Source of the DNA: Trypanosoma brucei
Taxonomy: Eukaryota
Reading direction: 5' to 3'
NCBI GenBank assembly: GCA_000002445.1
Contig: AL929603.2
Span: 480,001-544,000 of the forward strand
DNA: 64,000 nt
The notes under the pieces are model-generated. The model was given only the letters and a program-made list of their open reading frames with translations. It made no database searches and was not told the origin of the DNA. This document shows, in pieces, positions 32,991-51,582 of this stretch. Numbering within the stretch: the first letter of the stretch is position 1; each line of letters opens with the position of its first letter. The translations under genes were made by a program, and so were the position numbers.

Positions 32991-33007
32991 AGAGAGAGAG
33001 AGAGAGA
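32991..33007. repeat. (GA)n microsatellite with adjacent (GGGA) motifs
   Basis: gggagggagggagagagagagagagagaagg. Confidence 0.8.
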
Positions 33008-34038: not shown

Positions 34039-36015
34039 ATGATAGTACTTCCCACTTTTGATTTCCCGCAGCTGGAGGATGGTCACGAACCACTGACATT
34101 ACGGCAACAGCAGCAGCAGCCACCTCGTGGGGAACTGGTTAATTTGGTCCACGTGTTACCGTTTGGTCTTGCGATACAGCAACGGGCCCTCCTCACCGCT
34201 CGGCTCCTAATGGAAGAGCGACAAAAACCATCACGACGGCACGAGGACCCGAATGCTGCGGGTGCCTCCGATGGTGAAGACGACAGTGAGGGCGATGGTG
34301 ATGGCAGTGGCGAATATGGAAGAGGAGGAGGGGGAAGCTTTCAGCAACAGCAATCGTACGCATCGCGACGCAAGAAGTTTGTGAAACTGACAGAAGAGGA
34401 TTTGCAGGTTGACTGGTATGAGATACTTGGCTTAGAGCAGAGCGGAGGTGCGACCGATGAACAAATTCGCACCGCCTACCGACGACGTTGCCTTGAAACA
34501 CATCCAGACAAGCAGAAAGATCGATCAGATGCGGCCTTCAAGAAGGTGCAGCGTGCCCTTGACATCCTCGGTGACCCCGAAACGCGATTGACATACGATT
34601 CCTCACGCCCTTTCGATGACACAATACCGGCAGAAACTCTACCAACAGGAGCCGACTTCTACGCAATATTTGGTCCTGTATTCGAACGCAACAAAAGGTG
34701 GAGCACGGACCCTAGTCTCCCTTCTATTGGGAATGACAAAACAAGTTTGGAGGAAGTTAATAGGTTTTATGACCGCTGGGTGCGTTTTCAGAGCTGGCGC
34801 GACTTCTCACACATGGTAGAGCTTGATGAAATTGATGATAGCATGTGCCGCGAAGAAAAACGGTATTATATGCGTGAAAATGAGCGGCAACTTAACTGTT
34901 TACGCCGTGAGGAGCAACAGCGGTTGCGTACGTTAGTTGAGCGAGCCCGCAAAAATGATCCGCGGCTACGGCGCAAGCGTGAGGAGGACGAGGCGAAAAG
35001 GCAACGCGAGCAGAAGGAACGGGAGGACCGACGACGTCAAGCGCGTGAGGAGGGGGAGCGGCGGCGTGCAGAGGAAATGGAGCGCGAGCGTCAGAAACGG
35101 GAGGAGGAGAAGCGGAAGATAACAGACACAAAGAATGCCATTCGTCAGGCAAAAGATGATCTGATTGTCTTCCTGGAGGAGCACGGCCTTCTAGACGAGA
35201 CGGCAACGAACAAACTTTTGCGACATGCAGTGCGGCGGCCTAACATAGGGTGGATATTTTCGAAAATTAACACTGCCGAGGAGGCTGCGGGTGTTGTCTC
35301 TGAGGTGAAAAACAAGGATACGACACGCCGCGCGACGAGCACAAAAAGCGGTACGTCCAGCAACGTGGCCTCTCGCACTACCGACGAAAGTGAAGAAGAT
35401 ACTGAAGTTGAAGCCGTCATTTGCTTTAACGAACTAGTTGAGGAAAAGGAGCGCCAAATCGGTCTGACCCGGTATGGTGAAGCTGTCAAAGCCAGGCCCG
35501 AACCCAAACCACAGGAGGCAAAAAAGAAGACCGTTCCTGAATCAGTGAACAAACACGCAAAGGAGTGGGATGAGGAGGACTTGACGCGCCTGCAAAAGGC
35601 GACGGCCAAGTTTCCCCCGGGTACAGTGGAACGCTGGAGTAAAATCGCTGAGCAGTTGCGCGGTAAGTTTACCGAGGAAGAGGCAATGCAGAAGGTGAAT
35701 GAAATAACTGCGGGTCTCCATCGCAGTGGCGGTCAAACGGGAGTCGCCTCCGCCAAGCAACCGACGAGTGCAGTTGAGGGAAACGGTGCAACCGCAGCAG
35801 CGGCGCCATCAGCAGGAGGGGCCAACTCTCAGGTCGCTTCCGTGGAGGATTGGACGGTGAAGCAACAAAAGATGCTGGAGTTGGGTTTACGGGATTTAAA
35901 GGATTACAAGGAAAAGGATAAGTTTCAGAAGATTGCGGCGATGGTTGATGGAAAAAATGCCAGGGAATGCTTCGAGCGGTTTAAGTATCTCTGTGCTATG
36001 AATAAGCGCAAGTAG
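34039..36015 (+). CDS. zuotin / DnaJC2 (MPP11)-type ribosome-associated J-protein: J-domain plus two C-terminal SANT/Myb-like domains
   Basis: 658-aa ORF. The J-domain is DWYEILGLEQSGGATDEQIRTAYRRRCLETHPDKQKD...AFKKVQRALDILGDPETRLTYD, including the HPD tripeptide. A charged R/E/K-rich coiled-coil region follows (RRQAREEGERRRAEEMERERQKREEEKRK). Two SANT-like units are WDEEDLTRLQKATAKFPPGTVERWSKIAEQL and WTVKQQKMLELGLRDLKDYKEKDKFQKIAAMVDGKNARECFERFKYL. Confidence 0.92.
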   Translation: MIVLPTFDFPQLEDGHEPLTLRQQQQQPPRGELVNLVHVLPFGLAIQQRALLTARLLMEERQKPSRRHEDPNAAGASDGEDDSEGDGDGSGEYGRGGGGSFQQQQSYASRRKKFVKLTEEDLQVDWYEILGLEQSGGATDEQIRTAYRRRCLETHPDKQKDRSDAAFKKVQRALDILGDPETRLTYDSSRPFDDTIPAETLPTGADFYAIFGPVFERNKRWSTDPSLPSIGNDKTSLEEVNRFYDRWVRFQSWRDFSHMVELDEIDDSMCREEKRYYMRENERQLNCLRREEQQRLRTLVERARKNDPRLRRKREEDEAKRQREQKEREDRRRQAREEGERRRAEEMERERQKREEEKRKITDTKNAIRQAKDDLIVFLEEHGLLDETATNKLLRHAVRRPNIGWIFSKINTAEEAAGVVSEVKNKDTTRRATSTKSGTSSNVASRTTDESEEDTEVEAVICFNELVEEKERQIGLTRYGEAVKARPEPKPQEAKKKTVPESVNKHAKEWDEEDLTRLQKATAKFPPGTVERWSKIAEQLRGKFTEEEAMQKVNEITAGLHRSGGQTGVASAKQPTSAVEGNGATAAAAPSAGGANSQVASVEDWTVKQQKMLELGLRDLKDYKEKDKFQKIAAMVDGKNARECFERFKYLCAMNKRK

Positions 36016-36245
36016 CAATTTTTTTTTTCGCTATTTTTTTTTTTTACTCGCCTCCCTATAAAACATACATGGTCACGGTGCACGATACTCTTTCTCACCT
36101 TAAAAGTAAGTGTACGTGAGGTTAACAGTGGTATCGGCGCGCTGGGCGTCGCCACCGGGCATGCGGTTGCAGCACCCCTTCCAAAGTAAATATCGTACAG
36201 TCACAAAGCTGGAAGTTCAAACTCCGGATTTTCTTCTTTTTTTGG

Positions 36246-36263
36246 GTGTGTGTGTGTGTGTGG
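36246..36263. repeat. (GT)n microsatellite, with a (CA)n microsatellite at 36378..36397
   Basis: gtgtgtgtgtgtgtgtgg and acacacacacacacacacaa in the intergenic DNA between the J-protein and YIF1-like genes. Confidence 0.85.
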
Positions 36264-36569
36264 TGTTGCGGTTTTCTTCGACAGAACTGCACGATTTGAT
36301 TCTGTGTTGCCGTCTGTCCCAAGCCCTACACAATTGCAAAAAAAAAAAAGCTTTCCCACCTTTCTTGCCATTCACTCAACACACACACACACACACAACA
36401 AACAAACAGCTCCTGTCACGCGTTTTTGTCCATTGGGAAAATAGGGTTGGGAGCAAACTGGAGGTTGTAAAGGAGAAGGGAGGGAAAAAGGAAACAAGGG
36501 GGCGGCGACGTGCTCCCAGAAAAAATAAATAAATAAAATAGGTAACAGTAACGTGGTTACAATTCGTGT

Positions 36570-37472
36570 ATGGACTCCTTTGGAAACCAGAAACATCCGA
36601 TGAGGCAACAACAACAACAACAGTCGCCTGGGTACCCTGACCAATCTTCATGGGGAGGAACGCAACAGAATGCGATGCTAGAGATCGGGATGCAATACGG
36701 GCAGAATGTCCTTCAAGAAAAAAGTCAAGGTTTTATGAGCTACATATCCGTCGTCACGGGATTCCGCCGTTATTTTCGTGTAGATAACCAGTACGTCAAA
36801 CGCAAGCTCACTATGTTGCTATTCCCTTTTCTATTCAGCATGAAAAAAACAGAGGGTTATAGCAACAACGACTATGAGGAAAGGCGGTATCCTTCAGGAT
36901 TTGGGGGCGATTCGCCTCCTCCGATGCAAGGCGGCAGTTGGTCACCGACATCAACACAAAGCACGGAACAGGTGCCTCCACCAACTGAAGACGTACATGC
37001 ATTTGACTTATATGTGCCACTGATGGGTGCTATAACGTACGTAATCCTTTCTGGTTTCCTCTATGGACTACATCACAACAGCGTGCCGAATGAACAACTT
37101 GTAGGGCCCGCTTGGTCGCTGCTATTTTGGCTTCAAGTGGAAGTTTTCATTCTGAAGCTCGTGTGTCACCTTCTTCGCACCACACCGGCATCAACCATAC
37201 TCGAGCTCACCGCACTATGTTCCTACAAATACATCACGATTTGCCTTGCTGTGTTGCTGAGAGAGGTTTTGCGTTTGGAAGGTGAAACTGTGTATACTTG
37301 GGCAATACTTTTATATGTTGTGCTTGCCAATGCCACATTTGCCGCCAAAACTTTGATGCGCTCGCACCAACGAGAGCAACGCGTTCCGTACAACGCAAAG
37401 GTTTTTGCATATGTTACTGCACTTCTGCAGGCACCCATGACTCTTTGGCTCGCGATACGGCCCTTTCAGTAG
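36570..37472 (+). CDS. YIF1: YIF1 (Yip1-interacting factor / Hrf1) family Golgi membrane protein
   Basis: 300-aa ORF with a Gln-rich N-terminus. The YIF1 signature FRRYFRVDNQYVKRKLTMLLFPF (compare YF-VD--YV--KL--LLFPF) is present. The C-terminal half has multiple hydrophobic predicted TM segments. Confidence 0.8.
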   Translation: MDSFGNQKHPMRQQQQQQSPGYPDQSSWGGTQQNAMLEIGMQYGQNVLQEKSQGFMSYISVVTGFRRYFRVDNQYVKRKLTMLLFPFLFSMKKTEGYSNNDYEERRYPSGFGGDSPPPMQGGSWSPTSTQSTEQVPPPTEDVHAFDLYVPLMGAITYVILSGFLYGLHHNSVPNEQLVGPAWSLLFWLQVEVFILKLVCHLLRTTPASTILELTALCSYKYITICLAVLLREVLRLEGETVYTWAILLYVVLANATFAAKTLMRSHQREQRVPYNAKVFAYVTALLQAPMTLWLAIRPFQ

Positions 37473-37595
37473 GCACGTGCGACTGATAGTTACGTTCCCA
37501 TTCATGTGTGTTGTGCGTGCCAATTGATATTCCACATATGGAGGAACTGCAAGGAAGTTGGTTTGTCCCTTGCGCTGTTCCACACGCAGCTTTCA

Positions 37596-37711
37596 TTAGT
37601 GTTATTGGTGTTGCAATTGTTGTTGTTGTTGTTGTTGTTTTTTTATACAGTTGGTTTACCTGACACTTCCTTCCTCGACCTGAAACCTATCGCGGTGCCT
37701 TCTTTTGTGTT
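37596..37711 (+). promoter_or_regulatory. polypyrimidine tract / splice-acceptor region in the 240-bp spacer before the PRP38-like gene
   Basis: gttgttgttgttgttgtttttttatacagttggtttacctgacacttccttcctcgacc...cttcttttgtgttttgtgtgtttcc directly upstream of the 37712 ATG. Confidence 0.5.
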
Positions 37712-38431
37712 TTGTGTGTTTCCGCCGTATTCTTCAACCGGTACCTGTGCATAATGGCCACCGAAGCGGAGAAGGCGCAGGTAGGAACGCATCCCATCCA
37801 AGAAACAAATAAATTAATTAGTAGTTCGAACGTAATGAATAATGAGCGACCGGCGGCGTGGAACTTGAAGGGCCGCAGCGCAGTTGCCGCCTTCGATCCC
37901 GTTACACGCCACCGTATCCTCCAGTCCCAAACAATGGCCGCTTGCTTTCATCGTCCGCTAATGGCAACGATGGAGGACCTCATTTCCGTGTCGTACGTCG
38001 GCGGATTGAGTGGTCCACTGCGCAAACCTGAACCGTTTATTTGCCTTATTGCGAGGGTGCTGCAAATAACGCCAAACACCGCTATTGTGATGGCAATGCT
38101 TCGGCAGGACGTGCATAAATATTTGCGCGTTGCGGCACTCTTCATCATTAGGCTTATTGGAAATGGCACCGCGATGCGTGAGGCTCTTAGGATAGGATGG
38201 AATGACTACAGGAAAATACGCGTCTATGGAAGCAAAGATGATTGTACATGTGAAACTAAAAGCCAAGATGGTGAAAAAGCGGATACGAATGAAGTGGAGG
38301 GGGAGGCGCTGGTGGCGGCGCCAATTCACGCAATCATGTGCGTAGATGAAATCACGGATCGTTTGTTCAACACCGGGCGAGAGGGTTACAGCAGCACATG
38401 GTTAGGAGTTAACTTTTCTCCGCTCCTGTGA
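37712..38431 (+). CDS. PRP38: PRP38-family pre-mRNA splicing factor
   Basis: 239-aa ORF. The block SYVGGLSGPLRKPEPFICLIARVLQITPNTAIVMAMLRQDVHKYLRVAALFIIRLIGNGTAMREALRIGWNDYRKIRVY...AIMCVDEITDRLF aligns motif-for-motif with the conserved PRP38 N-terminal domain (FVGGVYGG-KPTPFLCL--KMLQIQP...KYVR-LGALY-RLTG...YNDYRKIK...HVDEFIDELL). Confidence 0.88.
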   Translation: MCVSAVFFNRYLCIMATEAEKAQVGTHPIQETNKLISSSNVMNNERPAAWNLKGRSAVAAFDPVTRHRILQSQTMAACFHRPLMATMEDLISVSYVGGLSGPLRKPEPFICLIARVLQITPNTAIVMAMLRQDVHKYLRVAALFIIRLIGNGTAMREALRIGWNDYRKIRVYGSKDDCTCETKSQDGEKADTNEVEGEALVAAPIHAIMCVDEITDRLFNTGREGYSSTWLGVNFSPLL

Positions 38432-40140
38432 AGCACCCTGTCGCCGCGTACAGTTGGGGATGCGATGGGTGCAATATGGAAGGAAAATTAACTGTGACGG
38501 GTGCGACGTCACCGGAATAGGGGGCATTTCTCCTGCAGAATCAGTCCCCGGAACGTAACCCCGTCCCCGTGCTCTCGATGTTTCTCCTCTCTTTCTTTTT
38601 TTTAAACTCGTGCGTGCAAGGAAATGAGAAAGGAGTAGGAAGTTCTCCCTTCGGTTTGTTTCCACATCCCAGGATTCCGTTCAGATATTTTCACGGTACC
38701 GGTGCCGGGATCTGCGCCCGTGTTTTGCGATAGGAGTTCGACGCGGATGTGGTGGTAAACAGACATTGAGGAAAGGGAAGCCTTCAACACAAATGGAAAG
38801 CGCTGACGGAAGGAATCACACGAAGCAGGAATGAGGAGACGGTTCGACACATCGGCCGGATGCGCAACGTAAGTAATAGGGATTTGGGGTTCCTAAAACC
38901 GACGAATAAATTTAAAGACGCCCAGTCTTCCAGCACCCGCTACACATTCCATGCGAATGTTTTGCGTCGTCTGGAGAGTCCGCGAGCAACAGGCTCCAAC
39001 GGCGGTTTACCTTCGATGGGGTGGCTGGCGCCACATCTCCTCATTCGTACGGGAGCGACTTATGTGTTGCCCTCCTGAGGAAATAACTGGAAGGGAGAAG
39101 CGGAGCGGCTCAACCCAATACTGGAAAGTTCACACAGGAAGCCGTTGGAGCGCAAGCACGTATGGTGGTATCACCACCTGAGTTTCGTGCTTTGGAGGGA
39201 AATTAAACAAACCCTAACTCATAAATGCCTCCGCCCGAGTGCTTCCTCTCCTCTTTGAATCACCCATCATCCGCATATGGTGGATGCGGGGATTTATTGT
39301 CATTATTATCGTTGGCGTTACTTGCGAGCAGCGGCCGCATTCGACTACTGGTCCCTCTCCTTTTTTAGTTAGCGGAAAGGGACGGTCGCAGGAGGGGAAG
39401 CGTTTAAAGTAATTTACAAATGTGAAGGTGGAGAATTCAGCACCGTGTCGCCGCGTGGTCCGCAATTCCCTTTCAGCAAGCACACGTGGGAGCCGGGGTT
39501 CCGTGAAGGTCTTCCAGACCACCCAACACCACGACTGGAGGAAAAGGCCCGCATTATGCCTTCATTTTCATATTTAAGGGCGAGGAATTTAAGAACAAAA
39601 ACAGATAAGAAAAACGAAAGACATGGCGCGGCACATTTGCAGCAACCGTGCGCGTACTCAGATTTATGGTGAGGTGGACTGTTCTAGATGTCAGTGGCAG
39701 CAAAGAAAAACAACTAGACCAGTAACAACCGCTAGCCGCATGGCGGAACGCGACGGCCGGCACCCACACATAACGGTGTCCGCAGCTAAGCGCACGTCAT
39801 TACTTACCGTGTAATGCAAATATCAACCCGGCAATCGTGAAGGAAGTTAACTAACCCATCCCTCCTTCAGGTGGCAAGACGACCCCGGTTTCCATTTGCA
39901 ATTCACTTAAGCCTCTGTCCCGGTTCCATTCAACATCCCCGCCAAATGCCAGCTCCAGTCAGTTAGCATCCTGCTTCCCCAACACGTAAAAAATAAATAC
40001 GGGATTGGTCCCGATGCTTCGTTTTCCCCTCTCCTCCACATCTTTGAATTATCGACGGGTTTAAGCGGCCCGTTTCTTCAGCACCGTAACACAATTAGCC
40101 GAGACTGCTCTCACCCCCATCCGAAGCAGCGATACAAACA
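38432..40140. promoter_or_regulatory. putative convergent strand-switch / transcription termination region
   Basis: The last plus-strand gene ends at 38431. From about 40.1 kb the plus strand becomes A/C-rich (so the minus strand is pyrimidine/GT-rich) and the next gene is on the minus strand. There are no long ORFs here. I found no tRNA-like A/B-box structure by eye. Confidence 0.4.
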
Positions 40141-40141
40141 G

Positions 40142-40295
40142 AACACAATGTACCACAACAAATACCAACACAAAATGTTCACAAATCACAGCACTCGTTA
40201 CCCACAATTCCGCGTACGAAAGCACACAGAGGAAAAATTGTACACTATTTCACACGGAGGCAGTGGGTGTCACAAATATCCAATCATCGCTGAAA
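40142..40295. repeat. copy A of an imperfect ~150-bp direct repeat (partner at 44288..44425) flanking the minus-strand surface-protein gene
   Basis: aacacaatgtaccacaacaaataccaacacaaaatgttcacaaatcacagcactcgttacccacaattcc...cggaggcagtgggtgtcacaaata versus aacacaacatgtcacaacaaatatcaacacgaaatattcactaatcacaacactcgttacccacaattcc...cggaagcagtgtgtgtcacaaatg. Hand alignment gives roughly 80 percent identity, same orientation. Confidence 0.65.
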
Positions 40296-41079
40296 ACAAA
40301 CATAAGCACGACAACGAATGTGAAGGAAATCCCAACCACATACACGTGTACCCAGGACTAAACACCATCAGGCTGGCACTTTGGATTGGAAGTCGAATCT
40401 ACGCAAAAGATAGTGTTCACCAAGAACCTTGCACAATTCCTCCTAGAACTTGAGAAACCCCTCATTCCCTTCCAACATGTACTTTCTTCATTCTGGAGGA
40501 ACACTCCACTCAAGGAGAGACTACATACAATGTTGCCTTCCGTATAAGTGGAAATTGTAACCCCTCGCCCCTGTACATTTGGATCGTAAAAAGGTATGTA
40601 GAAGTCTTGGGACCCCAAATACGGTATTACAGCCATAGCGAATGTTTGACAATTAAATTGTCAGTAACCCGCACTTGCCCCTTACAACTAGTTCCAACCT
40701 AACCTATACAAGTCATTAATAAGACAAATATAGTATTATCTGACACAGATAGTAACAAGCTAATAGCACACTCACAACAGAGCATAATATACAAAAAGAG
40801 TTACATAAAGTTTCTAGCTCCCTTGAGATGTCATGGCATCACCAGAGAGCTCTCCAAACAAACCACCGCTATCTTGATAACGGCACTCAGCATTGCTGGC
40901 AGTTACTGCTAAACAAAAAAAATGATACAACATTCATTATTCATCTTAACAAAACAAATTCATATGATATTACTTATACACTCACATATTTAAGAATTAA
41001 ACAATATGCACACGTGTACATGCACAAACCATTAAAAAAACAAGATGCTACGCAACAATGTTGGTAACGTAACAATAAA

Positions 41080-42462
41080 CTAAAACATACAAAAAAGGGA
41101 AAGAATTAATAGCATAACAACACCAGTTTTCACATCTATATAATAGAAACAATCATTATTTACCCCAGTATCATAACCTTCACTGTCACTTTCACCTTGA
41201 GCTCGGTTACTTTTCCATAGCCCAGCATCACCACCAAGTTTCACCTCAAGAAATATTTCCTCTGCCTCATGTTGGTATTCTTCCAATTCGTGAAGATGAC
41301 TGTCAGACTCTTTGGCATACTTTGCCATTTCTTGTAGTTGCTCGGTGGCGTTAGTAAGATGGTTGTACCAAGGAATCCCACCATTTTCAAGTGTGTGATT
41401 GTAACTGACACATGTGAATCCAGCAGTGTAACCCAGGCACGTGCTATTCTCGTTATGGTCTGTTCTCACGTAGCCAAGAATACCCTTTACCTGATGGCCA
41501 TTCTGTCCCAAATTCACTAATGCATCAAACTGAGCTAATGCACTCTTTAAGGTTTTCACATTAGATGCAACATTTTTGTATGCACAAGCCTTACTAATCA
41601 CATCCCAAGCCTCAGTATGGTTGTATTTTATTTTCTTAGGGTCGCACTTGCTGTTATCACCTTTACAAGAATCAGCCATCATAGTCCAACTACCATTTTC
41701 AGGTCTCCTTATTTCATCCTTGCAAGGACAGTTATATCCATTATATATATTGTCATCACTACTGTCTTCGACATCTGAATCATGGTGATGTGTCCCTCTC
41801 TCTTCTTTCTTAACAATGTCGATAGCCTCCCCAACACATAGGCAGAAGAAGTCATTAATTAGTGTCTTTCCAACTAGCTTGTCTCCAAAAGAACCGCAGC
41901 TCGTGGCTGCATTGTAGACACTATTGAACAGCAGTGATTTGTTTCCTCTCATGGCTTCCTCCAGAGTTTTATTCTCATTTCTTGCCACATCCACAGCGTC
42001 GCCATACACAGCTCTCAACATATTTTCCTCAGCAGAACGACTTGCATTTAGCGATCTTGTCCTATTCACTTCTATTTCTTCCTTAAGTTTTTTAGCCTTC
42101 TCAAATAGTTTCTTCATCTCCTGATATGCTGTCGTGCTGTTAGATGAATTGCTCGAGCCCTTATTGCCAGCAACAGTTTCTGCCTCACTGACCATTTCCT
42201 CCAACTTCTTCAGAATCTCTCCTTCCTTCTCACGATTCTTAAAGGAGGGTTGTGGGGCCTCTGCTTGCGTGATTCGGTAAATCCTGCACAGTGTCTCGAA
42301 TTCACCAACGTTGTGGTGCTTTTCTTCTTGATGGACATTATCCCTGATCGCCCTCCAATCAATCAACTCGGGGGTCCACTTGAAAGACCACATATCACCC
42401 TGAGAGGAAGGAGATAAGACAGCCGCAAGCAACGCAATGGCAAACACTGTTTCGCGCCTCAT
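41080..42462 (-). CDS. Cys-rich, heavily N-glycosylated surface glycoprotein with signal peptide and C-terminal GPI-type hydrophobic tail (VSG-like / VSG-related; family unresolved)
   Basis: The minus-strand ORF 41080..42543 encodes 487 aa. The most plausible start is the second ATG at 42462, giving MRRETVFAIALLAAVLSPSSQG, a classic signal peptide. There are many NxS/T sequons (NSS, NST, NRT, NAS, NKT, NKS, NGS, NHT, NAT) and about 16 Cys including paired CxC motifs (FFCLCVG, YNCPCKD). The N-terminal half is predicted helical with charged heptad-like stretches. The C-terminus, ...NNDCFYYIDVKTGVVMLLILSLFCMF, ends in a short hydrophobic tail typical of GPI-anchor signals. It is the only gene on this strand in the window. 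Confidence 0.75.
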   Translation of the reverse strand: MRRETVFAIALLAAVLSPSSQGDMWSFKWTPELIDWRAIRDNVHQEEKHHNVGEFETLCRIYRITQAEAPQPSFKNREKEGEILKKLEEMVSEAETVAGNKGSSNSSNSTTAYQEMKKLFEKAKKLKEEIEVNRTRSLNASRSAEENMLRAVYGDAVDVARNENKTLEEAMRGNKSLLFNSVYNAATSCGSFGDKLVGKTLINDFFCLCVGEAIDIVKKEERGTHHHDSDVEDSSDDNIYNGYNCPCKDEIRRPENGSWTMMADSCKGDNSKCDPKKIKYNHTEAWDVISKACAYKNVASNVKTLKSALAQFDALVNLGQNGHQVKGILGYVRTDHNENSTCLGYTAGFTCVSYNHTLENGGIPWYNHLTNATEQLQEMAKYAKESDSHLHELEEYQHEAEEIFLEVKLGGDAGLWKSNRAQGESDSEGYDTGVNNDCFYYIDVKTGVVMLLILSLFCMF

Positions 42463-44287
42463 CGTGATTTTGCCTCTACATTCATTAGTCAAAGAGAGGG
42501 ACAAAAGCTTATCATTACAGTCATTATTGTTATTGAGAGACACACCCAGTAAACAAATACATCAATATATCGAAGTTAATAAGTGCCTGGGACAAACCAG
42601 CTGCTGCAGCATCCAACAAAGGGGGAAACACACACCAATACACATATTTACATGGGTTCACCCTCCTAAGCTGCATATTAACATTAAACACCCTCACAGC
42701 TGTTTTCCCATTGATTATCTTACTCTTACATATATCTGCATACAATAAATCCACTTTCTTAAACACCATGCTAGATCCTCCACTTTCCCAAGTGGACTGT
42801 GCTCCAGCCTTTTTGATTTCCTCAACAAGCTTATCTATTCTCCTATCGAGCACCTGTACATTTATGTTAAAATTATCCAAATCCTCCATTGGCTTTATTA
42901 ACTTCGGCTGCTACCTTATTGCTTTATTCGCTAGCACATTGCGTACTTAATCCGGACACATGTGTTACCTTTATCCAATGAACACCACTTTGCCGTTAAG
43001 CTTTATTTAGCATATCATCCTTTCTTCATGCATGTGCTGACACAACACTCTTCGTTGCCCTCTCTGCGTGCATGCACAGCTCCTTGCCTTCCATTTTCTT
43101 AAATCACACACTCTTAAAGGTAACAGTTAAATTTTCAAAACGCTTTCATTAGACACTTGTTTTTATTGAAACGTTTCATAATACTGTGATATGATGGAAT
43201 ATTATGTTAGTTGCCAACACACAAAACAGTCCCAGAACAACAAGTGACCTTCCCCATCAGCATCCTCATTTATATTATTTGCGACATAAAAATAATCACC
43301 ATCCTCTCAGTTAACTCTTGCCATCCTCACACCATATGCAAAGAGCATTAACACACTCCACCACCCCAGAGGAAAAATAATGGAGGGGCAGCCTTATTTA
43401 TCATCACTCACGATTAAAATAACTCAAAACAGAAACACTCCAACGAAAGAAATTATAACCTACGACAAACATGTAAGCACACACATGCAAAGATATGTAT
43501 GTTTATCACTATTGTGGGGAGGAGGAGTTATTTATATGAATGCACTTCCTCATAGTAATACAACTAGTACTATTCACACTGCCAATAAGATTCGTGTCGA
43601 GTTGCAGTTAGGCAACATTTCTGTTTACTTCGCTAAAGCATGAAAGGGTGTAAAAAATATATCTGACATCAGCTGGAGGTAAACGGAAGACGATTATTCA
43701 GTAGCATCGAAAAACAATGATGAGAGAAGTGAAGATGTCATGCACTTCATTGACAGAAAGAAAACATTTACATTTCACTAAACAATTAAAGTCATTTACA
43801 GAGCCACTCATAAATAAATTATCCCGTGGAATGGGGCACCTGCTTATGCTTCCACTGACACAATCCCATAATGGACGATATTCGCCATATTGGGATACGG
43901 ACTTACCTATTTAATATCACCCCATACCGTGATAACTGTCTCCATAATAGCCGTGTAGTACGTATTTGCTTTCACAAGAGCATTATATCATATATTGCTT
44001 ACTTCCCTGACACATTCATTATCTTCAGCGAATAATACACCAGCCTTAGCTACAAGATATCCCATTACACTCCAATAAGATATATGTTATCCCTGTCAGT
44101 CACTTTCACTCTGACATCAAACATACAGGATGCTATTGTGTATACTTCCCCATTAACAAACAAGTCCTGCTCCTCACCCCTAACGTAAAGTTCTCTTCAG
44201 TTTATTCAAAAGTTAACTAACACAACATACAAACATAATTAGCTTATATTTTGGGAAATCATATACTGATCCGCTGATACATGCTGC

Positions 44288-44425
44288 AACACAACATGTC
44301 ACAACAAATATCAACACGAAATATTCACTAATCACAACACTCGTTACCCACAATTCCATATTCTAAAACACATACACTACTTTAAACGGAAGCAGTGTGT
44401 GTCACAAATGTATAATCTTAGTAGC
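44288..44425. repeat. copy B of the imperfect direct repeat (partner at 40142..40295)
   Basis: See copy A. It lies about 1.75 kb upstream (in gene orientation) of the surface-protein ATG, whereas copy A lies about 0.8 kb downstream of its stop. Confidence 0.65.
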
Positions 44426-44699
44426 AAAAAATGTTTTATGCAGTATAACACTGAATAACATAACCAACACTGCTACAAGGGATGTTAAACCCATTAGGAT
44501 ATGCTACTGCTTTTTCGTCCTTAAAACATTATTACCTATCATATATCCATCATCCACACTTCCCTTGCGTTTCCTTGCGCTCTCGCTGAAACGTTTACAG
44601 AGAATCAGGCTCTGGGATAACAATTCTTTCAATCTACTTTGATGCCCAGTAAAGGAAACAAAGATCAGCTCTACATCACCGTACTGTTTGGTAATACTC

Positions 44700-45300
44700 T
44701 CCTATCCGTTTCTAACCAAACTAGTTGCTGATAAGCTAGGGCACTATGTCACTGCACATTAGGGTGACAACACCATCCCTATGGTAGGTAACGAAACCTC
44801 CAGTAGTTCCCACTATGAAGGATCCAGCCCCTCCATTTGCAACATCTTCCGTACCCATGATCCAGCTTTCCATATTGTTATTGGCTGTGAATTCAACCAG
44901 TTAGTTGTATAATTATTTGTGTAACCAATATACCGTCATTTGGCATATCTTCAGTGAAGGACATACTACAGCTCATTGGAGACTCCACCGTGTCGTTCTA
45001 ATGGCCATTTACTCCACCACTCACAGATTCATTTCCCTCTTCTGAATAGACAGCTTTCTCCTTCACAAGACAACAACCATTTGCCTTAACATCTGTTTGT
45101 TCAAACACCATTACCAGATCCTTCAACACTTGTCCAATTGACAATGATGCATTCACAACATGATTAGACACTCTTACTTCGTTTAAATAACTTGCATCTA
45201 TTACCTGTCCAGGTTCATCTGTATTCTCCACTATCTTCCTCAACCCCTGCATTATTGTTTTCCCTTCCCTCCCCTTTATACCATTCTGACGTCACCACTC
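44700..45300 (-). other. degenerate minus-strand coding remnant (possible pseudogene fragment) upstream of the surface-protein gene
   Basis: An 84-aa minus-strand ORF (44998..45252: MQGLRKIVENTDEPGQVIDASYLNEVRVSNHVVNASLSIGQVLKDLVMVFEQTDVKANGCCLVKEKAVYSEE...) is followed by further open stretches in other frames. Its composition is unlike the surrounding A/C-rich DNA, and it has no start context or recognisable domain. Confidence 0.2.
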
Positions 45301-45699
45301 CTAAAATCCATTCAACATTCCCGTCGCCTCCGATTGTTATTTTCAAAAACACTAGCACTCACAACACTTAAGGAATAGCTGAGGTTACATAACCCCATGG
45401 TGATGCAGGCCACCCCAACTCACCGCCAGAGCCTGGTGCCGTACTCAGGTAAGAAAAGAAAAGCGACCGCAGCCTACTCCACTAGGATGAAGTTCAGACG
45501 GAAAGTCCAAGGCATCAATTCACAGTGGGGCACACACCAGATCCGTTACAGAACGGGAATTATTCCCAGAAACAACCTGTGTACGTGCAAGAAAAGAAAA
45601 GAGGCACATTTCGCTTCCTCTCTCTAGGGAGTTGTGGCCTCATTATAAATGTTTTTCGTAAACTCTTTTCATAACTTTAACTGGACTGTCGGGCACACT

Positions 45700-46600
45700 C
45701 TACGGAAGAGTGGTGTAGCGTTTTTATTTTAATATAACTTTTTTTTATGTTTTATGCATGCTTGCCATGAGAACAAATCTCAAATCGCAGGTAAGCGTAT
45801 TCACACCGAAGATAGGGATGTTCTCGCACCGTTGGCAGAGCTATTGTCACGACGTGCATCAGCCAATGTGGCGAAATGACCCTGAGGAGTGGCATGTCCT
45901 GCGCGGTGGGCATGGAAGAGCACGGTGTTACGAATGATAAATAATGAACCTTATTCTCCGCCGGAGAGCGTCCAGGGGAGAAGCGCTCTTTTGTTAGAAA
46001 ACGAGTCCCTGCCACTTGTGTATGCGACGCTCGTGGTATTCGCCAGTCATTGGAAAGGGGGAAAGTATCGTTTACACAATATTGCCGTAATGGTAGTCCC
46101 CCCCCCAAAAGTTTCAAGTCTTTGAATCGATCTTTCTTCTGTATCGATGCAGATGGTTACGTTGGCATAAGCGTCACGGTATTGTTCGCATCGTTGGGGA
46201 ATCGGGCTATGCGTTGGTGAGGGCGAGAGGACAACGGGAAGCAATGAACCGGAAACAGTTTGGATGTACAGACACGGTGCGGCGCCTCGTCCCTCTCCCC
46301 CTCTGATGTGTTGAGCGGCCGTTGCTCTTTTCGTGCAGCTGAGGGATTCGAGAGGCGGCGCCCCCCGGTCCAGTTCCCGACTCCCTTGTGGCGGGAAAAT
46401 TGCTGTCGCTTCTAATGGAAGTGCCCTTGATGTTGGAGGTGTTACAGCTGCCATTTCACGACCGGCGGGTATCCGTGCCGTGAGGCTGAAGGCGCATTCG
46501 GGGGGTTGTCCGGCGGTTGTTCGCCGCGGCGGTTCCGTCAGTGGCCACACTTCGCCTTTTACTTTAATACTTTAGTGGGGTTGTTGTGCTTTAATTATTT
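45700..46600. promoter_or_regulatory. putative divergent strand-switch region / RNA pol II transcription start region containing a GC-rich island (about 46140..46560)
   Basis: The strand composition flips here. The plus strand is A/C-rich to the left (genes on minus) and strongly G/T- and T-rich to the right (46560 onwards: ggggttgttgtgctttaattatttattttattttc...ggtctggggcgttatctatttttttttcgg), where all genes are on plus. In between lies an unusually GC-rich segment (ggcggcgccccccggtccagttcccgactcccttgtggcggg...gttgtccggcggttgttcgccgcggcggttccgtcagtggcc). Confidence 0.45.
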
Positions 46601-49005
46601 ATTTTATTTTCTTAAATGGTCCAATGTTGTCGGCTTGCGGAAGGGGTGGGCGTGTATTCTTTGTCGCCGGTCCTCTTCCTCCTTTTTTTCCTGCTGGGTA
46701 CGGGGCGCATTTGTTATGTGTTTTCGGTCTGGGGCGTTATCTATTTTTTTTTCGGTTCGAGCCGCGCAAATTTACATTCAAACCAGTAAAATACATGGGG
46801 TTGGGTCGGATCAATGTGGTAGAGAATTTTACACGAACGCGTCCGCTGTATGCATAGACGGGAAGAGGTGCATGGGGACATCCGTTTCTGTTGGATAAGT
46901 GGGTGCATCTGTGTATTTGTTTCTTTTGTTCCCCAACGGCGTCACCATTGAAATGTGTTTTTTCTTTGCTTTCAGAGGTGCAGTGGAGTATTTTGCCAAT
47001 ATTTGGTCGCGGCGCGTTTCTATCCGCTGTTAAGGCCAACTTCACGCGGTGTCTGTGTATTCGGTGAAGGTAAGCGCGGACATTGCCACCTGCTGGAATG
47101 AGGACCGTTTTATAGCATTAGTAGCGGCAACACTCTCCTGACATTGTGCTTCCTCACTACTTATTGGGATTTTTTTTTTTGGTGGCATACTTTCGGTGTA
47201 ATTGTTTTGAACGGTTGGGGTGCAATATCCGAAAGTGCTACCGATTGCGGCAGGCGCGGCTTATCTTTGAACATTTGTGTATAGTTGTTTTTTTTTTTTT
47301 CACGGTAGGTGTTAGCATTAAATGTCACTTTTGAGATATTTTTGATGTTTTTTTTTTTCTTAAATCCTAGCCGCTACTCGATTTCACAGCGGTCTACGTT
47401 ACAATTGGGTATTTTCGTTTAATTGCACCGAATCCGGACGGTATTAACTATAGAAACCACAGTGATGTTCTTCTATTCTCTATTTACGGCTGTCTCGTTG
47501 CAATTCCTGTTTGCTGTGTCGGTATGGCGATTAGTTCCCCCTTTTTTTTTGAATGTATGCAACATGTATATTTATAACCGTGTTGTTTGCAAGTTTTTTG
47601 TTAGGTAGGGCTGTTGGAAGAGTTAATGTTTACGGTATCCCTCTTCCAAAGCAATTGGCGAAGTTACTGACATGCCGAAGGATTAGCTCCCACTTTATTA
47701 TTTCGGCAACTTCCAGGGGGGAAGGGAGAAAACTAACCCTAGTCATATGAATCTCTTACGACAGCGGGTTGGCCGAACGGTCAATTTTCGCCGTCGGAGT
47801 CTTGAAGTATAATTTTCGTTCGATATGGATTAGATGTTGTAACTTCCTAATAATTTTGCGGTCATTTCTCGGTGTAGCAACAGATTTACGCGCCGCACCG
47901 GGATTACGTGCGTTTCCAAGGTCTTTAACATTTAAAGCATTGTCAACAACTGCTGTCGGATTTTTTTTTAAATGTGGAATTAGAAATTATTAAATAGCGT
48001 TTTGGTTACTCACAATAAGTAATTCTATGCCAACACGAAGTGACTTGGCTGGGCGCATTGCATATTTCGAATATGGAGTAATGAATATCTTTTTTATCGT
48101 TATGTTGGGATAAATACGAAAAATATTACGCTTGTTGTTTCTGTTCTACTTTGAAGTTATTGCATCATGTACGATGCAATAACGGAAGTTCTTCCAATAA
48201 TTTGGACAATGAAGCCCCGCACGCTTAATTTGTTTATATAAAGTGTGTTGTTGCTGATTCTTTTTGGAGTTTGTCTCTCTGTTCTTTTTTGTTTTTTTTT
48301 AAATATAAGTACCTGGGGGGAATGCGGAGCGAGAAAACGGATGTTGGAACTGTCGATTTAGCTTTCCTATTATTATTTCTGGCTAGGGACTCCAATGGTG
48401 GAATTAAGTTACTTCTAAATCATTTTTTTTCCAAAGGAAAGTAGTTACTCAGTATTGTAAAAGGTTTCGTCCGTTGTAGGTTTGTATTATCATGAAACAG
48501 GTAGTTGTAACGTATATACCATTCTTTTTTACTTTTATGCCATGCAAATTAATAATAGTAATAAGTGATGACCTGTAGCTTGATTTAAGCCGTGTTACTC
48601 GCAATTGTTTTTATTACTCTTTGAACTGTTGGCATGATCGTTACATTTTTTGAATTTTTGCGAAGAATGTACCCCTCGTGAGCTATTACTCTCTTGATAT
48701 GAATATTCAGTTGATTGAGTTGACTTCTTTCTTTGACTGTTTTTTTTTTTTAATCAGGGTTAATGCTCTTTCATTTTATTGATATCAGAACATGTGTATT
48801 ATATTGGTAAACTTTGTATCGATGCAAAAACTATCTTTTTTTTTTTTACCGTCAGAGGTTTGAATTTGCGTTTTACCCCATTTGAGGAGCATGCACAAGT
48901 TTTTGTTTTTTGTCTTTAGCTTTTGCTTGTGCAACTGTAAGCACTTGTTTATTATTATTATTATCTTATACTTAATTTCCTATGGTACAGTGACGTTATG
49001 ATCAT

Positions 49006-49025
49006 TATATATATATATATATATA
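49006..49025. repeat. (TA)n microsatellite
   Basis: tatatatatatatatatata in ORF-free T-rich DNA upstream of the calpain-like array. Confidence 0.9.
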
Positions 49026-51582
49026 CTTCTTATTGAATTGTAATGTAACGACCACATTTTCAGAGAGGCCGTGAAAAGAATACTCTAACCTTGCTTTCCT
49101 TTTTATATTAAATAAAACATGAAGTAGTTATTTCATAACTTTACTGACGCCCATAATAAGTTGTCTGTTTCTATTTCTTCTAAAGGGGGGAGGCACGTGG
49201 TCAGGTCGAAGGCGCATCCCCAATGTTATTTTCTTCATCTCCATGGGCAATGTCAATTAACGGTGCTTTCAATACCATTCCTTTTAATGATTTCCTTTAA
49301 TATATCAAATATTTTAAATGAGTCCTGCACCTTCGTTGTCGGATTTATACCGAACTGGGCACTGTGGTAAAGCTGGTTGAAAAAAAGATAGCGAAAACAA
49401 CAAAAACGGTCTTTGTTTTTTGCTGTTGATTTCACTCAGGACATGAAAACAATAAATTTGAGTATCTTAACTGTTAAATTGGTACATACATTGGTGAATC
49501 AAATGCGTTGTGGTGGTGATAACTGATTTAAAATATCGCACTCAATTTTTTTGATACGTTAGTTCTATCTGAGTGATTTGGATGTATTTCCTTTGACGAT
49601 ACGCTTGCTTTTCTAAAGAAACGTTATCACTAATGTTGTTGTTCCCTTCTTTATTGTATAGCTTGTTGCCAGTAGACACTTACTTTATTGGTTCTGCTTC
49701 ATGATATCTTCAAGCTAAAAATTTGTTGTAAACCTTGTTTCGTTGCATTCAATTTTGATCGGTTTCTTTCTCTTATCGGTTATGTTTTATTATAATTGTT
49801 TTGTCATCAGTATTTGTGTGAAGCAGGCACCAGTCTTCCTTCTCTGGAGAACTTTAAAGGCGGAGGAATTTTTTACCTCTCCCATAAAGTTGAACTTTAG
49901 CCTTTTCCATTATCTTTTTAAAAAATCTGACTAAATATCTTTGTGGGATAAGAAACTAGCAGTGCCTCATAGCATTGACATCCCGGTCACTCTTCTCTGC
50001 CCAGCACATGGTATTGTTAAAGAACACATGTATATGTTGCTGTTGTTTGTTTTTATATAAGCTTTTAAGTAACATCACAGATATTTTGGTTTATGAAGTT
50101 CACTCCTTTCGTCATCAATTGCTTGGAGTATGTGTGGTCTGCAACTGATTTTTTTTTGCCGTTTATTTGTTTTGTCCTTTCTTTTTTAAAAAGTGTCCCA
50201 CCAAAGGGCATGCCAATAATCTACCCTTCGTGGTCGCACGTCTTTCTTTTTTTTTTTTTGACATCCAATCTCATTTCCTCCATTACAGTGCCGTTGTAAG
50301 ATATGTTTTTTTTTTTAATTCTTTCGGACGGGGATTAATGACCAAAAGTACCAAAAAGGAGAGACGGAGGCGAGAAAAGAAAATGTGGCCGTTTTACCTA
50401 AATGTTAGTCTCTTCCCTTGTCTTCTCTTCCACAGCCTTTGAAGTTTTCAACCATCGTAGGTACTTTTTTATTCTTTTTTTTATTCGGTTAGAAATTTTT
50501 TTTATTGCTGTCAAGATCTTTTGTTTTAGTAATGTTTGTCCTCTTTTATTCTTGTGTAATTATGTAAACGCCCTTTTGTCTTGGGCTTGAGACTTTTTAT
50601 TCCATGACTGTTTATGGGAACTCGTGTGTTATACATTTGTTAGAGGCCCCTTTTCCGTGCTTTCTCTTTTTTGGGGGGAGGGGAGTTTGCGAAAGGGATT
50701 ACCAAGTTGCACCCCCAAAATTATTAATAATAATAATATACATTTGTTCTTAATGCGTATCAATAGCAAATAAATACCAGGGATTTGTCTTTTAGAAGCT
50801 CTCACCGCATCGCGCAGGAGACAAGTTCAGAAAAGTAGTAGCATTCTCTTATAGGCTTGTTCTTAACTTTGAAATATTTTATTTACTTTCCATTTGCTCT
50901 CTCTCTCTGTGAATGGGTTTGCTGCCTCACAAATTTTCAATACTCATTATGTATATCGTTTCTTTTCCCAACGCTTTCACACATTTGACATTGGGTAGGA
51001 TAAGTCAGTGACTTATCCGTTTTGTTTTCAATTAGACGTGGTGAAGTGAATTGAAGTGTGTCCCGTTGCTATGTAGGGGTGTTTGAAACACAGTGTAGGT
51101 GGGGAAGTAGTTGGTTAACTTTTCTCATGTGTGCACTTGTGTCGTGTGATAGGTAATTGCTTTCCTTTTTATTCATTTCCTAAAAAAACACTATGTGCCC
51201 TCCATACCCTGCGGAAAGATTAGTTGTGCTCTGATAAAGGGATGTGTTTTATATGTTCATGTGATGAGATTAAGTTATTCTGGCGCTGCGACGGATGGTA
51301 TGGCACTTTGTGATTTAAATGTACTTTCAGGAAGCTGTATTGTGCTATCGGTGGGTTTTGTGTGGTAATGCGCGCACTCGTTGTTTTAGCAGGCTTCGCT
51401 GCTGCTTTAGTTGTTGTGTGTTTGTTATCAGCGATTTATTTTTCCGATCCCTTATGCAGTGAATTGCATCGGTCCCTATATATACGTCCCCCCTTTTTTC
51501 ACACTGGTACACGGAGGATAGGGTTATTTGAGAATAAGCGAATCCAAGCATATCTCTTATCCTTAAGCATCAGGGGCAAGAT

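What the first reader, a model, noticed from the sequence alone, without database searches (positions are those of the whole stretch)
40142..44425. Imperfect ~150-bp direct repeats bracket the surface-protein gene in a ~4.1-kb unit
Two same-orientation segments (40142..40295 and 44288..44425) align at roughly 80 percent identity (shared core cactcgttacccacaattcc and ...cgga[g/a]gcagtg[g/t]gtgtcacaaat). Sequence beyond them is unrelated. One copy lies 3' and one 5' of the only minus-strand gene. Direct repeats flanking a single gene are what insertion or segmental duplication/transposition of a gene cassette would leave, or recombination between dispersed repeats. Alternatively they are copies of a small dispersed element, or of a small RNA gene duplicated along with its flank.
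Basis: seen in the sequence. Interest (0 to 1): 0.6.

Follow-up and report, generated by a model that had tools for sequence, protein, structure and literature searches.

The report
Duplicated ESAG11–ESAG1 junction flanking GRESAG2
The two ~160-bp direct repeats are real, but they are two decayed copies of the short stretch that joins the ESAG11 and ESAG1 genes in trypanosome expression-site-type gene arrays, left by duplication and decay in a scrambled island of such genes rather than by a mobile element or a small RNA gene, so the finding is ordinary.

Summary
Copy A (40131-40299) and copy B (44276-44431) are same-orientation copies, 80% identical apart from a 14-nt indel. The Smith-Waterman z-score is 30 against shuffles, and there are only two copies in the window.

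The window is Trypanosoma brucei chromosome 1 type sequence, 96% identical to T. b. gambiense. The "surface-protein gene" is an intact GRESAG2. It sits in a 5.5-kb minus-strand island of expression-site-derived sequence, ordered psiESAG11 - B - psiESAG1 - psiVSG_B - GRESAG2 - ESAG11 start remnant - segment x - A.

The repeat unit is the ESAG11-to-ESAG1 junction: the ESAG11 3' flank, a polypyrimidine tract, and the first ~30 ESAG1 codons. Both copies carry ACG where the ESAG1 start ATG should be. B is in its native context. A is an orphan copy at the island's 3' edge.

A paralogous GRESAG2 unit on another chromosome is collinear with 45578-40793 and has only the upstream copy, so the repeats are not the ends of the duplicated unit. 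There is no Rfam or tRNA hit, no unusual folding and no covariation. Neither copy is better conserved between subspecies than its neighbours.

Verdict: a relic of segmental duplication and decay in a known gene-array family; low interest.

The parts
40131..40299 (-). Repeat copy A: an orphan copy of the ESAG11-ESAG1 junction segment at the 3' edge of the island. It retains the 14-nt pyrimidine-rich segment (40227-40240). ACG replaces the ESAG1 start ATG at 40196-40198.
   Evidence: No ESAG1 remnant follows it, and nothing below 40131 matches any ES-type locus.
44276..44431 (-). Repeat copy B: the ESAG11-ESAG1 junction segment in its native context, beginning about 16 nt after the position of the canonical ESAG11 stop. 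It has lost the 14-nt pyrimidine segment. ACG replaces the ESAG1 start ATG at 44342-44344.
   Evidence: Homology with L003 11905-12758 and L005 6536-8265 is contiguous through it.
44459..45393 (-). psiESAG11, the 'b2' part, equivalent to codons 39-367. It is frameshifted and its stop codon is lost.
   Evidence: tblastn with L003/L002 ESAG11 gives summed E 2.5e-67 in three frames. The query protein is named ESAG11 by its sources.
45394..45578 (-). Segment y: the 5' end of the unit shared with paralogous locus L005 (80% identity to L005 6536-6698). It is not ESAG11 sequence.
43697..44229 (-). psiESAG1 fragment with in-frame stops and frame changes.
   Evidence: tblastn and blastn to ESAG1 of L003, L002 and L005. 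The L005 and L003 queries carry Pfam ESAG1 PF03238.
42593..42964 (-). Remnant of the C-terminal third of a VSG_B-type gene, the one that precedes ESAG2 in locus L002.
   Evidence: tblastn gives 36% identity to aa 360-487, E 1.7e-11.
41080..42462 (-). GRESAG2, an intact 460-codon ORF from the ATG. It has an N-terminal signal-like and a C-terminal hydrophobic segment.
   Evidence: Pfam VSG_B 3.1e-25. It is 91% identical to the T. b. gambiense 'ESAG2 putative' on the syntenic contig and 63-78% identical to other ESAG2/GRESAG2 proteins.
40800..41029 (-). 'b1': the ESAG2-ESAG11 intergenic region plus the first ~40 codons of ESAG11 (degenerate). It ends at TTATGTAAC, the same 9-mer at which b2 begins.
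40270..40799 (-). Segment x: non-coding, 67% identical to L003 15508-16051. That L003 region lies between ESAG1 and (TTA)n/(TAT)n repeats in an expression-site-like T. b. gambiense locus. Its 3' end overlaps the start of copy A by ~20-30 nt of mutual similarity.
   Evidence: All reading frames are about equally conserved.

Best explanation
The window is Trypanosoma brucei chromosome-1-type DNA. Between a convergent strand switch (about 39.6-40.1 kb) and a divergent one (about 45.6-46.6 kb) lies a 5.5-kb minus-strand island built from bloodstream-expression-site-type genes.

In intact arrays the order is (VSG_B-type gene)-ESAG2-ESAG11-ESAG1. Here the order is psiESAG11(codons 39-367) - B - psiESAG1 - psiVSG_B - GRESAG2 - ESAG11(codons 1-40) - x - A.

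The repeated unit is the ESAG11-to-ESAG1 junction. It consists of the ESAG11 3' UTR/intergenic region, a polypyrimidine tract, and the ESAG1 5' end including its signal-peptide codons. Copy B is that junction in place. Copy A is a second, orphan copy.

The two are sister copies. They share derived states (for example ATG>ACG at the ESAG1 start) and are closer to each other (80%) than to the same junction in other loci (50-65%).

The most likely history is inferred, not shown. A local segmental or tandem duplication occurred within this ES-type array, after it diverged from the paralogous unit on another chromosome and well before the brucei/gambiense split. Deletions and rearrangements then removed the rest of the second copy.

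The repeats are probably inert relics. At most, copy A's retained polypyrimidine tract could still act as a trans-splicing/polyadenylation signal at the end of the island (inferred).
For: Organism and orthology: the region is 95.9% identical over 13.6 kb to T. b. gambiense FN554964.1, and both copies are present there.

Gene identity: Pfam VSG_B, with ESAG2/GRESAG2 as the source names of the homologues.

B is the native ESAG11 3' flank. psiESAG11 ends at 44459. DNA homology to L003 11905-12758 and L005 6536-8265 runs uninterrupted from the ESAG11 coding sequence through B into ESAG1.

The repeat contains the ESAG1 start. In L005 a 285-codon ORF with Pfam ESAG1 (2.2e-83) starts at 7774, inside the repeat homologue 7636-7863.

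Sister relationship: pairwise identities and shared ACG. A keeps the 14-nt pyrimidine segment that L003 and L005 also have and B lacks.

The repeats are not unit termini. L005 is collinear with 45578-40793 and has one copy only.

No special constraint: window versus gambiense identity is 94.2% for B (neighbouring psiESAG11 94.1%) and 98.2% for A (neighbouring flank 97.9%, b1 98.6%).

Context from the literature: chromosome-internal ESAG2/ESAG11 clusters at convergent strand-switch regions, non-syntenic with other kinetoplastids, are already described (PMC2837033).
Against: Apart from the ~160 bp, nothing else is duplicated within the island. The two ESAG11 pieces do not overlap except for a 9-nt junction. 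A simple tandem-duplication history therefore needs several later deletions or replacements, and copy A could instead be a short ectopic patch.

The x|A junction is not seen in any other locus fetched.

Only six ES-type loci, all from T. b. gambiense or T. equiperdum, could be compared. The T. brucei genome and the telomeric expression sites themselves could not be scanned.

Identity of copy A to the L003/L005 junctions is only about 50% over the full alignment. Its assignment therefore rests mainly on its similarity to B.
Confidence: 0.75

Rival explanations
1. Copy A is not the residue of a larger duplication. Instead it is a short ectopic patch: about 170 bp of the ESAG11-ESAG1 junction copied to the island's 3' edge by gene conversion or microhomology-mediated repair, or an older homologous segment homogenised against B.
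For: Only the ~160 bp is shared. Homology stops abruptly on both sides. At the x|A junction, x (as in L003), A and B are mutually similar over ~20-30 nt (GATTnnATnTTTGTGA), a possible microhomology. A-B identity (80%) exceeds that of the surrounding paralogous comparisons (64-74%).
Against: A keeps an ancestral 14-nt segment that B lacks, so it is not a recent copy of present-day B. No mechanism-specific scar can be tested with two copies.
Confidence: 0.15
2. The repeats are functional cis-elements kept by selection. Possibilities are RNA-processing cassettes (polypyrimidine tract plus splice acceptor and polyadenylation guide) or 3'-UTR regulatory elements that set stage-specific expression of GRESAG2 and its neighbours.
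For: The unit is an intergenic processing region in intact arrays, and A keeps the pyrimidine tract. Internal ESAG2/ESAG11 clusters are strongly bloodstream-form-specific (PMC2837033).
Against: B has lost the pyrimidine tract. Neither copy is more conserved between brucei-type and gambiense than its neighbours. The paralogous unit L005 works with one copy. There is no stable or covarying structure.
Confidence: 0.07
3. The repeats are the termini or target duplication of a mobile GRESAG2 cassette, or copies of a small dispersed retroposon-like element.
For: The direct orientation flanks a lone opposite-strand gene that lies beyond the end of synteny with T. vivax and T. cruzi.
Against: The shared unit's ends (45578, 40793) do not coincide with the repeats, and L005 has one copy. 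Every fetched homologue outside this locus and its orthologue is a single ESAG11-ESAG1 junction copy (L003, L005). 160 bp at 80% identity is not a target-site duplication. A genuine retroposon insertion nearby in gambiense looks quite different, at 511 bp with an 11-nt TSD.
Confidence: 0.02
4. Each repeat is a small structured RNA gene (snoRNA or similar) duplicated with its flank.
For: None beyond the sequence similarity itself.
Against: There are no Rfam hits at gathering score or at E<=1 in 39800-46000, and no tRNA/tmRNA. Fold z-scores are -1.2 and -1.1 for the sense strand and -0.1 and -0.8 for the antisense strand. RNAalifold gives a covariation term of +1.2. Half of the unit is the ESAG1 signal-peptide coding sequence.
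Confidence: 0.01

Closest known systems
Chromosome-internal ESAG2/ESAG11 (GRESAG) clusters of T. brucei, for example Tb927.1.4890/4900, Tb927.1.5100-5120 and Tb11.01.6210-6250 (PMC2837033; Jackson et al. 2013, PMC3605285)
   Same: The gene families are the same (ESAG2, ESAG11, ESAG1, VSG_B-type). The location is the same kind: at a convergent strand switch and beyond the end of synteny with other trypanosomatids. The origin is T. brucei-specific.
   Different: Here only GRESAG2 is intact. ESAG11 is split and circularly permuted around it. The ESAG11-ESAG1 junction is present twice.
Bloodstream expression site gene order ESAG2-ESAG11-ESAG1-70-bp repeats-VSG (Hertz-Fowler et al. 2008, PMC2567434). 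The order itself is taken from my own knowledge and from loci L002/L003.
   Same: The repeat unit corresponds to the ESAG11-ESAG1 intergenic junction of such arrays. Segment x matches sequence between ESAG1 and the triplet-rich repeats in the ES-like locus L003.
   Different: The island is not telomeric, has no 70-bp-type repeats and no VSG. Its order is scrambled and most of its genes are pseudogenes.
EP3/PAG3/GRESAG2.1 unit of the chromosome 6 procyclin locus, triplicated in TREU927 (PMC4288722; PMC2731899)
   Same: It is a GRESAG2 embedded in a short specialised transcription unit that undergoes segmental (tandem) duplication.
   Different: It is a different locus, and no procyclin or PAG genes are present here. 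Whether Pol I transcribes this island is unknown.

Membership tests
ESAG11-ESAG1 intergenic junction of ES-type arrays (paralogous non-coding/5'-coding segment) | Directly follows the ESAG11 coding end | tested here: met
   Met for copy B: psiESAG11 ends at 44459 and the canonical stop position is ~16 nt before 44431. Not met for copy A, which follows segment x instead.
ESAG11-ESAG1 intergenic junction of ES-type arrays (paralogous non-coding/5'-coding segment) | Contains the ESAG1 start and signal-peptide codons and is followed by ESAG1 coding sequence | tested here: met
   The L005 ESAG1 ORF starts at 7774 inside the homologous segment. B is followed by psiESAG1 at 44229-43697. A carries the start region (ACG) but has no ESAG1 remnant downstream.
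ESAG11-ESAG1 intergenic junction of ES-type arrays (paralogous non-coding/5'-coding segment) | Homologous to the same junction in independent loci | tested here: met
   B is 62-65% identical to L003 12653-12865 and L005 7625-7875, with blastn E 5e-15 and 3e-17. A is ~50% identical, with E 0.002 to L005. Similarity to L002 is weak, and the junction is absent in L006, where ESAG11 is not followed by ESAG1.
Mobile-element termini / target-site duplication (ingi/RIME/SIDER-type or cassette LTRs) | Repeats coincide with the ends of the unit that is found copied elsewhere | tested here: not met
   The unit shared with L005 is 45578-40793, and it has only one repeat copy, which lies internally.
Mobile-element termini / target-site duplication (ingi/RIME/SIDER-type or cassette LTRs) | Multi-copy dispersal independent of gene context | tested here: inconclusive
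   There is no extra copy in the 64-kb window or in nine fetched loci, about 166 kb in total. The whole T. brucei genome could not be scanned with these tools.
Small structured RNA gene (snoRNA, tRNA, other Rfam family) | Match to a covariance model, or a stable conserved structure with covariation | tested here: not met
VSG-type transposition cassette (70-bp repeats upstream, conserved 3' end) | 70-bp / (TAA)n-(TGA)n-rich repeat array 5' of the gene | tested here: not met
   TRF finds no such array in 38400-51600. For comparison, L003 has (TTA)68 and (TAT)24 runs.
ESAG2/GRESAG2 protein family (the bracketed gene) | VSG_B-type domain, full-length similarity to ESAG2, N-terminal signal and C-terminal hydrophobic tail | tested here: met
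   Pfam PF13206 3.1e-25. Identity is 63-91% over 97-100% of the length to proteins named ESAG2/GRESAG2. The terminal hydrophobic segments were read from the translation.

The most novel reading that the evidence does not exclude
The GRESAG2 unit here and in the paralogous locus L005 is an almost exact one-period, circularly permuted excerpt of an ESAG2-ESAG11-ESAG1 array. ESAG11 is cut at the same TTATGTAAC, which is present at both ends. This fits dispersal of ES gene units into chromosome cores through excised circular intermediates re-integrated by microhomology. On this reading the 160-bp repeats mark a second such event, or form a recombination substrate that can loop GRESAG2 out again.
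Probability: 0.12. Interest if true: 0.45.

Novelty: new member of a known kind. Interest (0 to 1): 0.15.

Why it matters
It matters little beyond annotation. The result explains a conspicuous repeat as paralogous debris of the ESAG11-ESAG1 junction. It also shows that the lone minus-strand surface-protein gene is part of a decayed, rearranged expression-site-derived island. The split, permuted ESAG11 shared by two chromosome-internal GRESAG2 units is a modest clue to how ES-type genes spread into chromosome cores. The direct repeats are also a potential substrate for deletion of GRESAG2 in natural populations.

Tried and rejected
- Rfam at gathering score on the whole window and at E<=1 on 39800-46000: nothing.
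- ARAGORN: nothing.
- RNA folding of both strands of both copies, and an alignment fold of six homologues: no signal.
- The bacterial promoter/terminator scan is irrelevant for a trypanosome and was ignored.
- A second GRESAG2, ESAG11 or ESAG1 copy next to copy A: none found by tblastn, tblastx or sensitive blastn.
- Homologues of the sequence below 40131 and above 45578 in ES-type loci: none.
- Exact-protein look-ups of the window's GRESAG2 and of three TREU927 paralogues: not on record. All comparisons therefore use T. b. gambiense, T. equiperdum, T. vivax and T. cruzi contigs.
- Empty-site test in T. vivax and T. cruzi: synteny simply ends after PRP38, so it is uninformative about a solo copy.
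- Test of whether L005 is the GPEET/PAG3 procyclin locus: no GPEET or EP repeats.
- Literature search for this specific chromosome 1 gene: no mention found.
- One literature query failed on syntax.
Full report
**1. The observation**

The two segments are present as described. The repeat finder reports 40142-40226 versus 44288-44372 (82%) and 40241-40299 versus 44373-44431 (76%). MAFFT joins them across a 14-nt indel. A local alignment of 40131-40299 against 44276-44431 has 124 matches in 155 ungapped columns (80%). It scores 72, against 12.6 +/- 2.0 for 1000 dinucleotide-preserving shuffles (z = 30). The best-scoring other tile in the same A/C-rich island scores 13. blastn gives E = 2e-24, and no third copy exists in the window. 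Flanking sequence on both sides is unrelated.

**2. Where we are**

The plus-strand ORFs of the window encode:
- a PI3K-like kinase (identified from the syntenic genes in T. vivax and T. cruzi);
- a DnaJ/zuotin protein;
- YIF1;
- PRP38;
- three calpain-like proteases with DUF1935 (synteny).

The minus-strand ORF 42462-41080 has a VSG_B domain (3.1e-25). Its homologues are all Trypanosoma brucei proteins named ESAG2 or GRESAG2. The best is 91% identical and comes from T. b. gambiense DAL972.

The gambiense contig FN554964.1 is collinear with window 33000-51958 at about 96% identity and contains both repeat copies. The window is thus T. brucei-group chromosome-1-type sequence, and the bracketed gene is an intact GRESAG2. 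GC skew is negative from about 39.6 to 45.6 kb and positive elsewhere. This delimits a short minus-strand block between a convergent and a divergent strand switch.

**3. Anatomy of the minus-strand block**

I fetched paralogous loci through their ESAG2 proteins:
- L002: T. b. gambiense, 4.5-Mb chromosome.
- L003: sub-terminal and expression-site-like, with an ESAG8-type RING+LRR gene upstream and (TTA)68/(TAT)24 runs downstream.
- L005 and L006: internal T. b. gambiense loci.
- L004: T. equiperdum.

In L002 and L003 the order is ESAG2, then a 367-368-codon gene, then ESAG1 (Pfam PF03238). The middle gene is named ESAG11 by several sources.

Mapping these proteins and DNAs onto the window gives the following, read 5' to 3' on the minus strand:

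| Segment | Window coordinates | Description |
|---|---|---|
| y | 45578-45394 | Shared only with L005 |
| psiESAG11 (b2) | 45393-44459 | Codons 39-367, frameshifted |
| Repeat B | 44431-44276 | |
| psiESAG1 | 44229-43697 | |
| ESAG2-upstream sequence | 43456 onward | Includes a VSG_B-type C-terminal remnant at 42964-42593 |
| GRESAG2 | 42462-41080 | Intact |
| b1 | 41029-40800 | ESAG2-ESAG11 intergenic region plus the first ~40 ESAG11 codons |
| x | 40799-40270 | 67% identical to L003 15508-16051, which lies between ESAG1 and the triplet repeats there |
| Repeat A | 40299-40131 | |

Nothing below 40131 or above 45578 matches any ES-type locus.

**4. What the repeat unit is**

Homology between the window and both L003 and L005 runs without a break from the ESAG11 coding sequence through repeat B and into ESAG1. 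B is therefore simply the ESAG11-ESAG1 junction.

In L005, a 285-codon ORF with a strong ESAG1 Pfam match (2.2e-83) starts at 7774. That position is inside the segment homologous to the repeat, 7636-7863. The unit therefore comprises:
- the ESAG11 3' flank;
- a pyrimidine-rich tract;
- the ESAG1 5' end, with about 30 signal-peptide codons.

Both window copies have ACG where L003 and L005 have the ESAG1 ATG (40198-40196 and 44344-44342). A retains the 14-nt pyrimidine-rich segment also present in L003 and L005, whereas B has lost it in both brucei-type and gambiense sequence.

A and B are 80% identical in the core. B is 62-65% identical to the L003 and L005 junctions, and A about 50%. A and B are therefore sister copies that arose within this locus lineage. 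The duplication came after this lineage separated from the L005 unit (72-74% overall). It came long before the brucei/gambiense split (A 98.2% and B 94.2% between the two).

**5.

*Cassette ends.* L005 is collinear with window 45578-40793. It carries a single copy of the unit at the position of B and none downstream of its GRESAG2. The ends of the shared unit lie 1.15 kb outside B and 0.5 kb inside A. The repeats are therefore not the termini or footprint of the GRESAG2 unit.

*Dispersed element.* Outside this locus and its T. b. gambiense orthologue, the only homologues in the fetched loci are single junction copies in L003 and L005. A genome-wide count was not possible.

*Small RNA.* There is no Rfam match at gathering score or at E<=1, and no tRNA. 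Fold z-scores are -1.2 to -0.1. The covariation term is positive, that is, penalising. Half of the unit is former coding sequence.

*VSG-type cassette.* There is no 70-bp-type repeat array.

*Selective constraint.* Each copy is as conserved between the window and gambiense as its immediate neighbours. B is 94.2% against psiESAG11 at 94.1%. A is 98.2% against the flank at 97.9% and b1 at 98.6%.

**6. Most likely history and mechanism**

Shown:
- The repeats are two paralogous copies of the ESAG11-ESAG1 junction.
- B is in its native context and A is an orphan.
- Both lie in a rearranged, largely pseudogenised ES-derived island, which sits just beyond the end of the synteny block shared with T. 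vivax and T. cruzi.

Inferred: a local segmental or tandem duplication within the array, followed by deletions that removed the rest of the second copy. A short ectopic conversion or repair patch is the main alternative. It is favoured by the abrupt ends and by about 20-30 nt of three-way similarity at the x|A junction.

A functional role is not supported, but it is not excluded for A's pyrimidine tract as a trans-splicing/polyadenylation signal. This rests on established coupling of the two processes in trypanosomes (my own knowledge).

**7. Comparison with what is known**

Chromosome-internal ESAG2/ESAG11 clusters have been described. They sit at convergent strand switches, are non-syntenic with other kinetoplastids, and are strongly up-regulated in bloodstream forms (PMC2837033). 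ESAG-related chromosome-internal genes are treated as a distinct, T. brucei-specific set (PMC3605285). Segmental triplication of a GRESAG2-containing unit is known at the chromosome 6 procyclin locus (PMC4288722).

The present island is another, more decayed member of this kind. I found no paper that mentions this particular locus or the repeat.

**8. One less ordinary feature**

ESAG11 is split. Its first ~120 nt lie 3' of GRESAG2 and the remainder lies 5' of it. Both pieces end or begin at the same TTATGTAAC, and the same split, with up to ~30 nt of overlap, is present in L005. The GRESAG2 unit is therefore close to a one-period, circularly permuted excerpt of an ESAG2-ESAG11-ESAG1 array. 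This would fit a circular intermediate or an excerpt from a tandem array. It is a speculation that the data neither prove nor exclude.

**9. Verdict**

This is a real repeat with an ordinary explanation and low interest. It is a new member of a known kind: paralogous debris in a GRESAG island.

Noticed in passing
window 40793-40810 and 45385-45400; L005 11620-11650 and 6690-6730: ESAG11 is split and circularly permuted around GRESAG2. Codons 1-40 lie 3' of GRESAG2 and codons 39-367 lie 5' of it. Both pieces share the junction TTATGTAAC. The same split occurs in the paralogous T. b. gambiense locus L005, with up to ~30 nt of overlap.
   Followed up: partly
window ~46,590-46,600 (empty site); L001 5361-5868 (filled): The T. 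b. gambiense orthologue carries a 511-bp insertion flanked by an 11-nt direct duplication, AAATAATTAAA. It has a T-run at one end and ...GGCCGGCATCGCCAGGG at the other. From memory, the reverse complement of that end matches the RIME/ingi 5' signature. This looks like a retroposon insertion polymorphism in the divergent strand-switch region next to the island. 233 bp of it are 90% identical to L003 17219-17447.
   Followed up: partly
L005 4779-5011 and 13804-14039: The paralogous GRESAG island in T. b. gambiense (two VSG_B-type genes, psiESAG11, ESAG1, GRESAG2) is bracketed by 236-bp inverted repeats, 92.8% identical.
   Followed up: no
window 42593-44275: Between the window and T. b. gambiense, the interior of the island (psiESAG1 to psiVSG_B) is only 88.6-91.4% identical, and GRESAG2 is 94.2% (91% at protein level). 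The flanks outside the island are 97.7-98.9% identical. This indicates locally accelerated divergence or ectopic conversion from paralogues.
   Followed up: no
window 42593-42964 (minus strand): A remnant of the C-terminal third of a second VSG_B-type gene lies immediately 5' of GRESAG2. It is homologous to the gene that precedes ESAG2 in L002 and L004. It overlaps the 119-codon ORF 42530-42889.
   Followed up: partly
window 38431 onward; L007 and L009 from 10600: Gene order PI3K-like kinase / DnaJ-zuotin / YIF1 / PRP38 is conserved in T. vivax and T. cruzi. It stops right after PRP38. No calpain or ESAG-type gene lies within 10 kb downstream there, so the island and the calpain cluster lie beyond a synteny break.
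   Followed up: partly
window 51583-52600: The first calpain-like gene has about nine near-identical tandem 34-residue repeats (…EEASPAPSPAGESDEKASKSEHESE…) at its N-terminus. These generate long spurious antisense ORFs.
   Followed up: no
window 46000-46600: A G+C-rich patch (0.55-0.58) lies at the divergent strand switch just upstream of the island. It is followed by 5 kb of A+T-rich (0.31-0.38 G+C) gene-free sequence before the calpain cluster. It is a candidate transcription start region but was not tested.
   Followed up: no
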